Origin: Mobula birostris
Taxonomy: Eukaryota
NCBI RefSeq assembly: GCF_030028105.1
Contig: NC_092387.1
Coordinates: forward strand, 62,851,691-62,915,690
Length of the DNA stretch: 64,000 nucleotides
Reading direction: 5' to 3'
How positions within the stretch are numbered: position 1 is the stretch's first letter; the number at the start of each line of letters is the position of its first letter. The notes beneath the pieces are model-generated. The model had not been told where the DNA came from and made no database searches. It was given only the letters and a program-made list of their open reading frames with translations. Shown piece by piece: positions 4,637-61,579 of this stretch. The position numbers and the translations under genes are program-made.

Positions 4637-5080
4637 AACACACAGAAAGTGCTGGAGACACTGAGAAGGTCAGGCAGCACCTATGGAGGGAAATAAACAG
4701 TTGATGTTTTGGCCCGAGGCCCTTTACCTGGACTGGAAAGGAAGGGGGAAGGGAGCCAGGATAAGAAGGTGATCATACCTATCACTTCCAAAATTCTTGC
4801 TTGGCGCTTATCACCTCCAAGCTTCTCACTTTACCCCCCTCCTCCACCTCCATCTTCTCCCTCACTTGGCTTCACCTATCTCCTGCCAGTTTGTACTCCT
4901 TCTCCTCTCCACCTTCTTATTCTGGCTTCTTCCCCCTTCCTTTCCAGTCCTGGTGAAGAATCTTGGCCCAAAACATTAACTGTTTAGTCCTCTCCATAGA
5001 TGCTGCCTGACCTGCTGAGTTCCTCCAGCATTTTGTGCGTGTTGCTCTGGATTTCCAGCATCTGCGATATCTCTTGTGTT
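4637..5080. mobile_element. Penelope-like terminal-repeat fragments in inverted arrangement
   Basis: aaagtgctggag..ggtcaggcagca at about 4647 and its reverse complement gatgctgcctgacctgctgagttcctccagcattttgtg at about 5000. Degenerate hammerhead motifs lie on both arms. Confidence 0.65.
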
Positions 5081-6402
5081 CACGCCTTGGAAAGTAACTG
5101 CAGTGAATTTTGTAGATCATAAACGACATGGAAGGTGGAAGGACTGAGTGCTTCATGTAAAATTGGGTTGAGGCTTTAATATTGTCGGATCTGAAATCAT
5201 CCAGACAGGAGGAAAGAATTCTGAGCTGTGCCTTGTTGAAGTTGGAAAGGTTCTGGGGAATCAGAAGTCTATTCTGCTGACCTGCTTTCAGATCTATGGG
5301 ATTCATGAGACTGCTTCAGTTACTCCTCAAGATATCAATGGTTGTGGATTTGAAGGTGGCATTGAGAAAAGGAGGTGGTTAGATTCCCTCTTCCAAAAGA
5401 TAATTTCTGCCTTTTGCTCATGTACGTGAATTGTGCATCGAGCCGCACATGAAAGCGGCGTTGATCTTGCTTCATGTGTGCACAAGCTGCTTCATTATAT
5501 AAAGAACTGCAAGTGGAAGCAAACATCGGCTAACATCCCTCCATTCTCTGGAACATCGGAGGCTGGGAGGAGATCTGATAGCGGTAGATAAGATTATGAG
5601 AGGCATAGACAGAGTATCTTCTTTTTCCCGAGGTTGAAACGTCTAATACCAGTGGGCATGCATTTAAAATGAGGAGGGGTAAATTCAAAGATGTGCGGGG
5701 CAAGCTTTTTCACACAGAGAGTGGTAGGTGGCTGGAATACGCCGCCTGGAGTGGTGGTAGAGGCAGATACATTGAAGGCATTTAAGAGACGTTTAGATAG
5801 GCGTATGAAGTTGAGGAAAATGGAAGGAAATGGAGTTCTAAGGGATTAGTTCAGTTGGCCATTTGATTCCTAATTTAATTGCTTCAGTACAACATTGTGG
5901 GCTGAAGAGCTTGTTACCGTGCTGTACCCTTCTGTGTTCTATTCCACTTCTAACCTCAGGATGAAAGGAAGGTCATCAGTGACATAGTTTAGACACACAC
6001 ATATCTCATGAAAACAAGGGACAATAACAGTAACAGGGTGGGAAGCACCACTTTAAGAGAAAATAATGATATCTGAAGCAAATGGGAAAAAATTTGTGAC
6101 TGGATTTCAATGGAAGCAGTTATGAGATTATCTAGTTGGGATTAAAGGGAACAAACTACTTTCTAAAGATGAGGAACGGAGACTAGGAACTCTGTGTGTG
6201 GTTCATTAAAATGTTATGCATGACCATTGAAAATAATAAGAAAAGGGTAAGGTAGAATGTGAGACTTCAGTACACAGGACAGAGTTGTGTTACATCCTTG
6301 GAGTGCTCGGCAACACAGATTAGGAGGGATATGTTGACCTTATTGGGAGTGCAGGATGAATGGCAATCAAGCTCCGGAACTGAAGGGACTGATCAGCAGT
6401 AA

Positions 6403-6745
6403 CTTAGAAACATGGAAAACCTACAGCACAATACAGGCCTTTCAGCCCACAATGCTGTGCTGAACATGTCCTTACCTTAGAAATTACCTAGGGTTACCCA
6501 TAGCCCTCTATTTTTCTGAGCTCCATGTACCTGTCCAGGAGTCTCTTAAAAGACCCTATTGCATCCGCCTCCACCACTGTCACCAGTAGTCCATTCCACA
6601 CACTCACTACTCTCTGCGTAAAAAAACTTACCCCTGATATCCCCTCTGTACCTACTTCCAAGCTCCTGAAAATTATGCCCTCCTGTGCTAGCCATTTCAT
6701 CCCTGGGAAAACGCTTCTGACTATCCACATGATCAATGCCTGTCA
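6403..6745 (-). mobile_element. CR1-type LINE 3' fragment
   Basis: ORF 6494..6736(-) reads FFTQRVVSVWNGL..VVEADAIGSFKRLLDRYM, the CR1 ORF2 C-terminus. Confidence 0.8.
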
Positions 6746-8029
6746 TCAACTGATTCCAGTCAGTGAAGAAATCTCCATTTGATTCCCATCAATCTCAGTT
6801 TTATTAAGTCTCCTTGTTGCAACACTCACCGATCACAGCAGCATTCATGACCAGCTCGTGTCTGGGGCAAAGCTCTTTGATCCATGTTTGAAGCAAGTCT
6901 GGAGTCAAATGAAAGTGGGGCGTGACAAACTCAGCCTTAGTGAGCAATGTGTCTTGATAGTATTCTTCAAAGCACCTTCCCTTGCTTTGCTGGCAATTAA
7001 GAACAGTAATTAGCTGGAATGGATGTGTCCTGCATGTCATGGACAGTGTATATCTGCACCATTTCCTACATTGTTGGGTAGATCATAAGACCATAAGACA
7101 CAAGAGCAGAATCCAGCCGTTCGGCCCAATGAGTTTGCTCCACCATTCCGTCATGGCTGAGTTATTATCTGCTTCAACCCTATTCTCCTGCCTTCTCCCC
7201 GTAAGTGTTGACACCCTTATTAATCAGGGACCCATCAACCTCCACTTTAAATACACCCAGTGACTTGGCCTCCACAGCCACCTGTGAAAATGAAAGGATA
7301 TCATAGTGTTGCAAATATACTGGAATAGGCTGAATGGAAGCACAAATTGCTCTGGAGCATGTCATCAGCACTACAGCTGGGATGGAGTCAGGATCCATAG
7401 ATTGTCCTCAGGCATCTCTGGAGATCATGCAGCGTGCATCAACTCAACTGAAAACTGGCTTCTAAGCTGCTGGTTCTTCTTGATTTCAGAACGAAGCCAA
7501 GAAGGAATCAAATAGATGCTGTTTGCTGAAAATATTTGCATATGCTTCAACCTCTGATTTACATACTCATCCAGGATTGGCATGCTCATGGATTGTGTTC
7601 CTCCCATTTGTTATTGAATTCTTTACCACATTTCAGACAAGAATGTAGCAAGGCAATAGTAAAGTCATCTAAGACATGAGCTGTGGGAATGTTCAGTTGT
7701 CTGTAGCTTGCTGCGTCTGCTGTAGGCACACAAGTAGTCTCGTAATGTGGTCACATCAATTCTTGTCGGCTGGAAAATGGTCTATGAAAGTCAAATTTCT
7801 AAGTGAATTTATTATCAAGGTACATATATATCACCATATACTACCGTGAGCTTCATTTTCTTGTGGGCATTTTCAGGAAAATAAAGAAGTACAACTGATT
7901 TTTAAAAAAACTATAAATAACAAAGACTGACGAATAACCAATATGCAAAACAGAGAAAAGGAAAAATCGGAGAAGAAAATAGCTTTTGAAATTCAAAAGA
8001 TTACACAATAATAAATATATTAACTGAAG

Positions 8030-8525
8030 CAACACATAAAAAATGCTGGAGAAACGCAGCAGCTCAGGCAGCATCAATGGGAATGAATAAGCAGTTAATG
8101 TTTCTGGCCGAGACCCTTCTTCAGGACTGAGGAAGGAGGGGGAAGACGGCAGAATATAAAGGTGAAGGAGGGGAAGGACAATAGCTGGAGGTGATAGGTG
8201 AAGCCAGGTGTGTGGGGAAGGTCAAGGGATGGAGAAGAAAGAATCTGATAGAAGAGGAGAGTGGACCATAGCAGAAAGCGAAGGAGGAGGTGACACAGGG
8301 GGAAGTGATAGTCAGATGAGAAGAGGTAAAGGGCTAGAGGGGAGGGCAGGGGAATTTTTTTTTTACCAGAAGGAGAAATCGATATTCATGCCATCAAGTT
8401 GGAGGCTACCCAGAAGGAATATAAGGGTTTGATCCTCTGCTCTGAGGGTGGCCTCATCTTGGCACAAGAGGAGGCCACGAACCGACATGTCGGAACGGGA
8501 ACGGGAATCGGAATTAAGATGTTTA
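8030..8525 (-). mobile_element. Penelope-like element 3' end
   Basis: Same purine-rich terminal repeat as 11130-11975, in reverse orientation. Carries a hammerhead-like motif at 8092-8129. Confidence 0.7.
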
Positions 8526-59820: not shown

Positions 59821-60189
59821 AGAGAGGAAGAGGATTTTATATTTGATTTTCCAGTTGTAGGTTAAATAAATGTACTTTGATTAGGTCTAGTCATATTTGT
59901 ATGATATAATCATACCTAATGGTACAATCGATAATATCAATCTTATGTCAGATCTATCATATTTATTTTCACTTTCTTTTTCTGTTTTATAGAATATTTA
60001 TGTGGTCATAATCATAATGCAATGTGTCTGATACCAATATGTGCAGACATATTTCAGTATAAGCAAGGTAACATTTCTGGTTCACTTTAGGTGGATTTGT
60101 GGACTGGTTATACAGCAAGCTAAATACTTGCCTTTCATAACTTTCAGGTATTGCAAGCATTTTCAATATTCCGGTGTGCAACAGCAAGG

Positions 60190-60492
60190 TTGCAGCTGTA
60201 AGTGTACCGCTATTAAAATTCGGGGCGTTGGAGTACAGCATTCAATTCCGGCATCCTCTGTAAGCAAGTTTGTCTGTTCCTTCCCACATGTGTGTGGGCT
60301 TCCTCCGGGTGCTCTGGTTTCTGCGGTTTCCTCGTACAGTCCAAAGACATACTGTTCAGTAGGTTAATTAGTCATTGCAAATTGTCCTGTGATTAGGCTA
60401 GGGTTAAATTGGTAGATTGCTAGGTGGTGCATCTTGAAGGGCTGGAAGGGCCTGTTTTGTGCTGTACCTCAATAATACCTAAATAAAATAAA
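60190..60492 (+). mobile_element. V-SINE (HE1-like)
   Basis: V-domain gggcttcctccgggtgctctggttt..cagtccaaagac and an A-rich tail. Confidence 0.75.
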
Positions 60493-60577
60493 AGCATGAT
60501 TGCTGTTGTGTCTATGTGTGTAAGAGGTAGAACTAGTTTGAAAGCAACTCAAAATCTTCTGCTTCCATATTAAAATA

Positions 60578-61579
60578 TAAACTCAGAGTCTATTTTATTA
60601 GTTACCTCTTGTGCCTATTGAAATAGCCACTCAGTGTATGTTCGTGGTTTTCTGCTGCTGTTGCCCATCCACTTCAAGGTTCAACATGTGGATTCTGGTT
60701 GCTGTTCTGCACGACATTGTTGTAACGTGTGGTTATTTGAGTTACTGTCGCCTTCCTGTCAGCTTGAACCTGTCTGGCCATTCTCCTCTGACCTCTCTTG
60801 TTAACAAGGCATTTTTGGCCACAGAACTGCCGCTCACTTGATGTTTTGTTCCTCACACCAGTCTCTGTAAACTCTAGAGACAGTTGTGTGTGAAAATCAG
60901 AGGAGACCAGCAGTTCCTGACATATTCACACCACCCCAACTGGCACCAACAATCATTCCACAATGAAAGTCACTCTACTGCCATGATGAGGCTAAACCCA
61001 GGTTGGAGGAGCAACACCTCATATACCGTCTAGGTAGTCTCCAGCCTCTTGATATGAACATAGAATTCTCCAACTTCCGGTAATTCCCTCCTCCTCCCTT
61101 CCCCTATCCCTATGTCACTCTGCCCCCTCCCCCAGCTGCCTATCACCTCCCTCATGGTTTCGCCTCCTTCTACTATCCATTGTGTTTTCCCCTATTCTTT
61201 CTTCACCTTTCCTGCCTATCACCACCCCCCTGCTTCCCCTCCCCCACCCCTTTATCTTTCCCTTACTGGTTTTTCACCTGGAACCTACCAGCCTTCTCCT
61301 TCTCACCCTCCCCCCACCTTCTTTATAGGGCCTCTGCCCTTCCCTCTACAGTCCTGACGAACGGTTCCGGCCCGAAACATCGACCGGTCTTTTCCACGGA
61401 TGCTGCCCGACCTGCTGAGTTCCTCCAGCGTGTTGTGAGAGTTGCGTTCCCCATTCTGATGTTTGGTCTGAACAACAAGTGAACCTCTTGACCAGGTCCG
61501 CATGCTTTCATGCACTGAGCTGCTGCCATATGTCTGGCTGATTAGATATTTGCATTAATCTAATAAAGGCTACTGAGTG
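60578..61579 (-). mobile_element. Tc1-like non-autonomous element split by a Penelope-like fragment (about 60977-61446, plus)
   Basis: ORF 60674..60856(-) GQKCLVNKRGQRRMARQVQADRKATVTQITTRYN. The element resumes at about 61447 and ends ctaataaaggctactgagtg|ta. Confidence 0.75.
61349..61386 (+). ncRNA. Hammerhead-like motif, near intact, sense within RGR intron 1
   Basis: CAGUC-CUGACGA-ACGGUUCCGGCCC-GAAAC-AUC-GACCG. Confidence 0.5.

What the first reader, a model, noticed from the sequence alone, without database searches (positions are those of the whole stretch)
4698..61386. Dispersed family of minimal hammerhead ribozyme motifs carried by Penelope-like terminal repeats
Seen: a 38-nt consensus CAGUC-CUGA(U/A/C)GA-AGGGUCUCGGCC(C/U)-GAAACGUC-GACUG recurs at least a dozen times on both strands. 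Approximate positions: 4698-, 4946+, 8092-, 10601-, 11873+, 13238- (partial), 23357-, 24447+, 25273-, 43032+, 50225-, 58723-, 61349+. It has the hammerhead core (CUGANGA, GAAA, NUH), a 5-bp stem I, a short stem II and only a palindromic ACGU at stem III. Known: Penelope-like elements carry such minimal type I hammerheads, which are thought to cleave as dimers. Inference: at this density a chondrichthyan genome would hold a very large number of copies. Most are eroded, often at the CpGs of GAAACGUCG, but some may still act inside host transcripts.
Basis: partly seen in the sequence, partly recalled or inferred. Interest (0 to 1): 0.7.

Follow-up and report, generated by a model that had tools for sequence, protein, structure and literature searches.

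The report
Ray Penelope retrotransposon hammerhead copies
These motifs are mostly decayed copies of a known, tiny, predicted self-cutting RNA carried at the ends of a Penelope-type jumping gene, present in an estimated half million copies in this ray genome; where the copies begin and end suggests that they were likely made from uncut RNA that starts at the motif's first base.

Summary
Confirmed. All 13 positions hold the 38-nt motif. It is the minimal type I hammerhead in the pseudo-LTR of a Neptune/Nematis-type Penelope-like element (RT, CX4CxxC linker, GIY-YIG) in a mobulid ray. This kind was described in 2014. The genome holds 30,949 exact and 73,261 core-intact copies, and about 510,000 in all. 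In the window only 11873+ keeps core, stem I and the ACGU palindrome. There is no covariation among copies, but other hammerhead families in the genome swap the stems. Extra points: copy 3' ends lie 65-105 nt past the cut site; 5' ends pile at the first base of stem I (18 of 70) and not at the cut (1 of 70); and a subfamily spread with an A6C core change. Copies were therefore likely made from uncut RNA, and cutting is probably not needed for insertion. No sign of action in host transcripts. The scan reported the same family, and both extra points, before on other DNA.

The parts
4625..5097 (.). Head-to-head inverted pLTR pair (old subfamily) with a 14-bp target-site duplication, in the last intron of CDHR1; holds motifs 4698-4735(-) and 4945-4982(+), both core-mutated
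8092..8129 (-). Hammerhead motif, core intact but inner stem I pair, first stem II pair and palindrome broken; antisense in the CDHR1 intron; end of a longer 3' fragment (about 8025-8522)
10531..10773 (.). Inverted pair: motif 10602-10639(-), core-mutated, plus partial partner from 10642(+); 11-bp TSD with one mismatch
11147..11630 (+). Decayed linker/GIY-YIG coding fragment of the same element (72.6% to the young reference), upstream of the 11873 motif
11873..11910 (+). Best-preserved hammerhead of the window: core, 5-bp stem I and ACGU intact, one mismatch in stem II; 2.5 kb past the CDHR1 stop codon, beyond several AATAAA/ATTAAA hexamers
13172..13369 (.). Young-subfamily inverted pair with a perfect 15-bp TSD; 5'-truncated motif at 13238-13275(-) lacks CUGANGA
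20163..20845 (-).
23357..23394 (-). Hammerhead motif, core intact, stem I mostly broken
24436..24556 (+). About 100-nt stand-alone insertion starting at the front edge of the motif (24447-24484, G12A), with a 12-bp TSD (one mismatch)
25273..25310 (-). Hammerhead motif, G12A, palindrome broken
27270..27316 (-). Tail-only fragment without the ribozyme core
31672..31760 (-). Additional, heavily eroded copy
38302..38454 (.). Eroded inverted pair of partial copies in an LRIT1 intron
43031..43068 (+). Hammerhead motif, G12A, antisense in an LRIT1 intron
50225..50262 (-). Hammerhead motif, G12A, palindrome broken
57022..57099 (-). Additional, heavily eroded copy
58723..58760 (-). Hammerhead motif with all stems intact but A9G; homologous element fragments upstream to about 59834
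61349..61386 (+). Subfamily C motif (loop II UCCG), core intact, G10.1C and palindrome broken

Best explanation
The motif is the minimal type I hammerhead in the pseudo-LTR of a very abundant Neptune/Nematis-type Penelope-like retrotransposon of a ray, and the dispersed copies are 5'-truncated, mostly decayed insertions that were likely reverse-transcribed from uncut RNA. Shown: the unit is about 3.5 kb; the predicted cut (GUC^GACUG) lies 332 nt after the ORF stop and 138 nt before the ATG of the next unit; copy 3' ends cluster 65-70 and 100-105 nt past the cut; 5' ends cluster at -32 to -30, the start of stem I. Inferred: transcription starts at the A of AGUC (-31; YYANWYY initiator-like, consensus recalled). 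The element's protein nicks target DNA and starts reverse transcription internally at one of the two tail sites. It reads back through the intact ribozyme, giving long 3' copies, inverted pairs, and 100-135-nt stubs from the RNA's own front end. The ribozyme can fold actively only as a pair through the ACGU palindrome, probably with the element's protein. Cleavage would remove the capped 31-nt leader or the tail that holds the RT start sites, so it likely acts on a side pool of RNA (turnover or translation) and is not a required step of insertion. Scattered copies are almost all inert.
For: ORF with RT (DKG, RYIDD), CKRNKCYTC linker and GIY-YIG directly upstream of the motif; 60,929 first-look candidates for the RT-thumb region. 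Partial tandems, inverted head-to-head pairs (14 of 22 close pairs), 11-15-bp TSDs and bimodal 3' ends in 138 copies. Of 70 copies carrying the 5' UTR, 45 start upstream of the cut and none at +1. In 168 young copies from loci not chosen by a ribozyme pattern, 18 of the 70 ending between -57 and +19 end at -32..-30 (p=2e-10) and 1 at 0..+2. Genome-wide, 1,709 copies break at -32, with 28 of 30 inspected being true ends, against 751 at -35. The motif is held across six subfamilies: 8 of 38 columns vary against 29 of 35 upstream and 12 of 17 downstream. Other families keep core and palindrome with different stems. A6C lineage: 75 of 100 listed non-A bases at position 6 are C; 22 of 24 inspected C copies have old-type flanks, while 6 of 6 G/T copies are sporadic young ones. 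The anole PLE inserts uncut RNA in vitro, starts internally and has a protein-assisted ribozyme (PMC11167929).
Against: No RNA 5'-end or cleavage data: the runs were contigs only and none is on record as RNA. No clear cap-derived G at -32 (29 G, 25 A, 46 C of 100 listed). A modest genome-wide excess of 5' ends at the cut is not excluded: an estimated 361 at +1 against 77 at 0 and 181 at +3, although by eye most +1 joints have microhomology with the inverted partner or the target. The double-hammerhead fold is well above the minimum energy in ViennaRNA (young copy -11.5 vs -30.3 kcal/mol). No covariation among the window copies. Subfamily C has an A.C mismatch in stem I in 7 of 11 copies, and the young subfamily has G.U in place of the conserved G10.1-C11.1 in 130 of 168. 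None of the 20 long copies fetched had an unbroken ORF from ATG to stop.
Confidence: 0.7

Rival explanations
1. Classical model (Cervera and De la Pena 2014): paired ribozymes in tandem pLTRs cut out unit-length RNA, which may be circularised and is the obligatory template for reverse transcription.
For: The motif is conserved across subfamilies and families. Partial tandems put two motifs 202-279 nt apart. There is a 2-5-fold estimated excess of 5' ends at +1 over positions 0 and +3. A ligated circle would also give copies that read through the cut site. Earlier scan notes report joints at the cut.
Against: The main 5' boundary is -31, not +1. A lineage with A6C amplified; A6C slowed a test hammerhead from 0.30 to 3.6e-6 per min at 0.3 mM Mg2+ (PMC7151607). 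Catalytic mutants did not impair insertion in vitro for the anole PLE. In 369 anchored copies only 2 stop at C17, both 3-nt deletions from a search that selects such breaks.
Confidence: 0.15
2. The motif hardly ever cuts. It is kept mainly as the element's promoter start and protein-binding structure, or rides along as a passenger.
For: Stem I 5' strand coincides with the 5' boundary. The active fold is energetically disfavoured. A6C and stem I mismatch lineages spread. Craig et al. note that hammerhead-free PLE clades thrive.
Against: The pattern of change is that of a hammerhead: N7 and loop II are free, core and palindrome are fixed, and stems are exchanged between families. The youngest lineage has A6 (311 of 319).
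Confidence: 0.1
3. Some dispersed copies are active in, or domesticated by, host transcripts and cut or regulate host pre-mRNAs.
For: 73,261 core-intact copies exist, so thousands must lie in introns; the palindrome allows pairing in trans.
Against: No qualifying copy in the window. No sense depletion in 200 kb of one long gene (25:19; weak for intact copies, n=1). Close neighbours are mostly inverted (18 of 22 on opposite strands), so they are not both on one transcript strand. Copies decay at CpGs like neutral DNA.
Confidence: 0.04
4. The short copies are an independent non-autonomous family (retrozyme or ribozyme SINE).
For: 100-135-nt stubs with TSDs; two copies share the same 170|-32 joint.
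Against: The sequence is colinear with the autonomous unit and 5' ends run continuously into the ORF. Of 30 tandem joints, only that pair is identical. No motif-bearing tandem array in the window.
Confidence: 0.03

Closest known systems
Minimal hammerheads (min-HHR) in pLTRs of metazoan Penelope-like elements (Cervera and De la Pena 2014, PMC4209133; parts 1-2 of 4 read, supplement file 2 searched)
   Same: Type I topology, CUGANGA/GAAA core, one unpaired base before stem II, palindromic positions 15-16, 4-5-bp stem I, location in pLTRs of fish Neptune/Poseidon/Xena, mostly single dispersed copies, some close pairs on opposite strands.
   Different: Stem II is 4 bp (7-8 bp in the schistosome families); G10.1.U11.1 in the young lineage; about 18 core-intact copies per Mb against about 9,000 in Xenopus and 4,000 in coelacanth (different search methods). 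No shark or ray terms in the main text or supplement file 2.
Neptune/Nematis EN+ Penelope-like elements (Craig et al. 2021, PMC8557442; passages)
   Same: RT then C-terminal GIY-YIG, CX2-5CxxC linker, partial tandems, inverted 5' pLTR, 30-40-bp tail.
   Different: Neptune versus Nematis was not resolved by a tree; no microsatellite targeting was seen in the window insertions examined.
Poseidon of the green anole, PAc (Frangieh et al. 2024, PMC11167929; parts 1-2 of 4 read)
   Same: Two internal RT start sites downstream of the hammerhead, uncut RNA as insertion substrate, no read ends at the cut site.
   Different: Poseidon clade; its ORF starts inside the ribozyme, whereas here the ATG is 138 nt past the cut.
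Non-LTR retrozymes (PMC7229834, passages; bioRxiv 10.64898/2026.07.22.740005, parts 1-2 of 5)
   Same: Type I hammerheads, dimer dependence in vertebrates, derivation from PLE pLTRs; one chondrichthyan genome was sampled in the preprint.
   Different: Retrozymes are tandem arrays of 150-450-bp units expressed as circles; here copies are single or inverted fragments of an autonomous element.

Membership tests
Minimal type I hammerhead of PLEs | CUGANGA, GAAA and NUH cleavage triplet | tested here: met
   73,261 copies vs 41 control; majority of five of six subfamilies, the sixth has A6C
Minimal type I hammerhead of PLEs | Open stem I of 4-5 bp | tested here: met
   C/UAGUC with GACUG; A.C mismatch in 7 of 11 subfamily C copies
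Minimal type I hammerhead of PLEs | Unpaired base after A9 and G10.1-C11.1 pair | tested here: inconclusive
   Extra A present; G-C in subfamilies A0, B, C, D, but G.U in 130 of 168 young copies
Minimal type I hammerhead of PLEs | Palindromic stem III region allowing a double hammerhead | tested here: met
   ACGU in the young and C subfamilies and in all families listed (fixed by the pattern); the fold is possible but not the minimum-energy one
Minimal type I hammerhead of PLEs | Covariation of stems among copies of this family | tested here: not met
   Covariation score 0.202; 69 of 500 shuffles reach it
Minimal type I hammerhead of PLEs | Covariation of stems between families | tested here: met
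   Other families in this genome have stem I TGCA/TGCA or AGAA/TTCT and 5-8-bp stems II of other sequence; read by eye, no shuffle test
Minimal type I hammerhead of PLEs | Self-cleavage 3' of C17 as a dimer | not testable with these tools
   Needs a bench assay
Rfam hammerhead families | Covariance-model hit | tested here: not met
   No hammerhead family hit at E<=10 in the window or at E<=5 in 6 loci with intact motifs
EN+ Penelope-like element | Single ORF with PLE RT and C-terminal GIY-YIG with CCHH | tested here: met
   RVT_1 E 2e-5 and GIY-YIG E 2e-4, both just under the curated cut-offs; DKG, RYIDD, GVIY-CxxC-LYIGET and downstream His
EN+ Penelope-like element | pLTR by partial tandem, inverted 5' segment, 30-40-bp tail | tested here: met
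Neptune/Nematis | CX2-5CxxC linker between RT and EN | tested here: met
   CKRNKCYTC at residue 825 of the L064 frame
Neptune | RT phylogeny with reference Neptune elements | not tested
   No named reference set was fetched
Non-LTR retrozyme | Head-to-tail arrays of short hammerhead units | tested here: not met
   4 of 22 close pairs are on the same strand; no such array in the window; only two-unit partial tandems seen
Non-LTR retrozyme | Circular RNA intermediates | not testable with these tools
   Contigs only

The most novel reading that the evidence does not exclude
The element's RNA begins with its hammerhead, so dimer-gated cleavage is a switch: it decaps the RNA and sorts it into an uncut template pool and a cut pool for translation or destruction, acting as a concentration-dependent brake. 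The genome holds a natural knock-down, an A6C lineage that amplified and then stopped while A6 lineages went on. Half a million datable insertions make this the largest fossil record for testing what PLE hammerheads do.
Probability: 0.25. Interest if true: 0.7.

Novelty: new member of a known kind. Interest (0 to 1): 0.4.

Why it matters
The motif class and its link to Penelope-like elements are in print, so the basic finding is not surprising. What hammerheads do for these elements is still open (PMC8557442). This genome offers unusual statistical power: tens of thousands of young insertions whose ends record the template RNA, plus a lineage with a crippling core change. These point to uncut RNA starting at the ribozyme as the template, which matches the one in vitro study and can be tested by a 5'-RACE and a cleavage assay. 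The density of core-intact hammerheads (about 18 per Mb) appears higher than the published axolotl figure (126,247 in about 28 Gb), though the search methods differ.

Tried and rejected
Rfam scans found no hammerhead. Covariation among 17 natural copies did not beat shuffles. Sequencing runs: no RNA holder listed, and the four runs laid were contigs, so nothing follows about expression or RNA ends. Cap-derived G at the 5' boundary: inconclusive. Splicing as the cause of the -31 boundary: the pyrimidine tract plus AG looks like an acceptor, but a splice would end at -33 or -29, and the upstream sequences at the -31 joints are unrelated flanks or inverted element, not a shared exon. 5' ends at the cut: weak excess, confounded by microhomology, and absent in the unselected sample. 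Segments ending at C17: 2 of 369, both from a selecting search. The intron strand test covers only 20 of 80 planned 10-kb stretches, all in one gene, with one intact copy, so it cannot test intact copies. Lunse et al. (PMC5785218) was not held; I know it only through the review PMC6765202. Searches for a paper on this family in rays found none: (0 papers). The manta genome preprint shows 0 occurrences of 'penelope' in the listing. Supplement file 1 of PMC4209133, the bioRxiv supplements and Lunse et al. were not seen and may list shark or ray examples.

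
Full report
Observation. Matrix scores are 31-54 bits against a best of 19.6 in 20 simulated windows. An HMM finds 21 hits in the window, adding eroded or partial copies, and none in a reversed 400-kb control. Each motif is followed by a shared 60-100-nt tail and often preceded by a pyrimidine-rich stretch. 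Rfam gives no hammerhead hit.

Host and context. The window is G000:C22:62851691-62915690 in a 4.01-Gb genome. It holds the last exon of CDHR1 (8767-9330, +; 99% to a protein named from Mobula), LRIT1 (34916-49428, -) and a second LRIT gene (26170-30472, -). The host is thus a mobulid ray.

Copy number. The exact 34-nt pattern occurs 30,949 times, control 0. The core with any 13-nt stem II occurs 73,261 times, control 41. In 40 stretches of 10 kb at round coordinates, 51 copies span the motif, 7 are core-intact and 3 are perfect. That gives about 510,000 copies (bootstrap 350,000-680,000). The element covers at least 4.9% of that sample. For comparison, papers give about 9,000 min-HHRs in Xenopus and 4,000 in coelacanth (PMC4209133) and 126,247 type I motifs in axolotl (PMC7229834 passages).

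The carrier. Upstream of the motif, on the same strand, lie fragments and near-full copies of one ORF: 60,929 first-look candidates for a 177-aa region and open frames up to 1014 aa. It has RT and GIY-YIG domains, DKG, RYIDD, a CKRNKCYTC linker and CxxC plus His residues. By Craig et al. (PMC8557442 passages) this linker marks Neptune or Nematis; no tree was built. Named relatives are 92% (Mobula hypostoma), 77-81% (Hypanus) and about 70% (Chiloscyllium, Rhincodon) identical. The unit is 3517 nt. The predicted cut lies 332 nt after the stop and 138 nt before the next unit's ATG, so the motif is in the pseudo-LTR. Inverted head-to-head pairs are 14 of 22 close pairs. Four of seven window insertions examined have 11-15-bp target duplications. 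None of 20 long copies had an unbroken ORF.

State of the window copies. Four of 13 keep all core bases (8092-, 11873+, 23357-, 61349+); only 11873+ also keeps stem I and the palindrome. CpG positions changed in 41 of 96 cases against 41 of 348 elsewhere. The one sense-strand intronic copy among the 13 (4945+) has A6G and G12A.

Selection on the motif. Among 17 natural copies covariation does not exceed shuffles, as expected for decaying insertions. Between six subfamily majorities, 8 of 38 motif columns vary against 29 of 35 upstream, 12 of 17 in the spacer and 14 of 43 in the tail. Two of the eight are CpG decay; the rest are N7, two loop II bases, two pair-keeping C-to-U changes and A6C. 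A search with longer stem II gave 1,173 hits against 320 control. It revealed several other families with the same core and palindrome but different, still paired stems. Against this: an A.C mismatch in stem I in 7 of 11 subfamily C copies, and G.U at 10.1-11.1 in 130 of 168 young copies.

Folding. A15.1-U16.1 would enclose two bases in a monomer, so an active site needs two copies paired by ACGU. ViennaRNA puts this fold well above the minimum: -11.5 vs -30.3 kcal/mol for a young copy, -19.9 vs -24.2 for the old-type 58723 copy, -59.3 vs -85.4 for a natural tandem. The young monomer pairs G5-G8 with the CGUC of the cut site. This fits the low in vitro activity of min-HHRs and the protein dependence seen for the anole element (PMC11167929); the model does not count tertiary contacts.

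What the ends record. 3' ends of 138 young copies peak at +65-70 and +100-105 from the cut, the two-start 'tail' signature explained by internal initiation in the anole element. Reverse transcription therefore starts downstream of the cut and reads through it. Of 70 copies holding the 5' UTR, 45 begin upstream of the cut, none at +1 and three at +2 to +4. In 168 young copies from loci not chosen by a ribozyme pattern, 70 end between -57 and +19: 18 at -32..-30 and 1 at 0..+2. Genome-wide, 1,709 copies break at -32 (28 of 30 inspected are true ends) against 751 at -35 (not inspected). Position -31 is the A of YYAGTCC, which fits the initiator consensus YYANWYY (recalled); Penelope and rotifer PLEs have initiator-like starts in the pLTR (PMC2377424 and PMC3846280 passages). 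I infer a transcription start, but no cap-G excess was clear. Against a clean negative at the cut: breaks at +1 are an estimated 361 (13 of 30 of 833) against 77 (8 of 30 of 288) at 0 and 181 (11 of 30 of 494) at +3. By eye most +1 joints share letters with the inverted partner or the target. Minor use of cut RNA remains possible.

The A6C lineage. Of the first 100 of 356 otherwise intact copies lacking A6, 75 have C, 14 T and 11 G. Of 30 inspected, 22 of 24 C copies have old-type flanks and all 6 G/T copies are young sporadic mutants. In the random sample 6 of 38 classified copies have C6, and many extend into endonuclease coding sequence. A6C slowed a test hammerhead by more than 10,000-fold at 0.3 mM Mg2+ but little in Mn2+ (PMC7151607 passages; natural A6C also in PMC3088659). 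A master with a likely crippled ribozyme therefore spread, while the youngest lineage has A6 in 311 of 319 copies.

Host transcripts. In 20 stretches of 10 kb between seven same-strand laminin-G exons on C1 (read as one neurexin-like gene, label inferred), motif-spanning copies were 25 sense to 19 antisense (p=0.45), with one core-intact. No depletion is seen, but the test has no power for intact copies.

Mechanism. Shown: identity, position, copy number, end distributions and the A6C lineage. Inferred: start at -31, internal priming, uncut template, dimer- or protein-gated cleavage acting on a side pool. Cleavage could feed decay or, as reported for viral 5' UTR hammerheads, cap-independent translation (PMC13725137, abstract only). 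I put the identity at about 0.95, the uncut template at 0.75 and the start site at 0.65.

Novelty. The class is published (PMC4209133; dimer cleavage via the review PMC6765202). My searches found no paper on this family in rays, but a 2026 preprint sampled one chondrichthyan for retrozymes, and Lunse et al. and several supplements were not seen. The scan's own notes hold 93 similar findings in at least 24 genomes, including the 5' pile-up and the A6C lineage. I read them after my own tests, and they are not independent support. Verdict: new member of a known kind, interest 0.4.

Noticed in passing
L374-L401 (G000:C1) and the listing: At least five other min-hammerhead families with longer stem II (for example GATGGC/GTCATC, GTCACC/GGTGAT, GGCTCC/GGAGCC); their carrier elements were not identified.
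   Followed up: partly
L090, L225, L226 (unit positions +1268 to +1286): Three insertions run from about -30 to about +1280 and then restart at -31, suggesting a short RNA ending near +1280 or a 1.3-kb non-autonomous subfamily with two ribozymes.
   Followed up: no
L083-L112, L213-L252: 30 short partial tandems in which the upstream piece ends at +142 to +519 (often +250-290) and the next piece starts at -30 to -165; several repeat the same 5' start twice, as expected from template jumping.
   Followed up: partly
proteins P0022, P0043: Element ORF sequence appears in annotated host isoforms of Hypanus and Mobula (divergent protein kinase domain 1C X2, chitinase domain-containing 1 X1): exonisation or annotation error.
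   Followed up: no
L363, L371: Two copies have a 3-nt deletion starting at the predicted cut; both came from a search that selects such breaks.
   Followed up: partly
unit positions +782 to +989 (L093 and others): A length polymorphism of about 207 bp in the proline-rich N-terminal coding region of the element.
   Followed up: no
window 1-8766: Only the last CDHR1 exon lies in the window, so the last intron exceeds 8.7 kb.
   Followed up: partly
window 14526-18040: Near-complete, interrupted CR1/L2-type LINE (label recalled) with esterase-like, endonuclease and RT frames; RVT_1 E 2e-32.
   Followed up: no
window 9648-10067 (-): 139-aa frame that looks like a DNA transposase remnant (recalled resemblance, not tested).
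   Followed up: no
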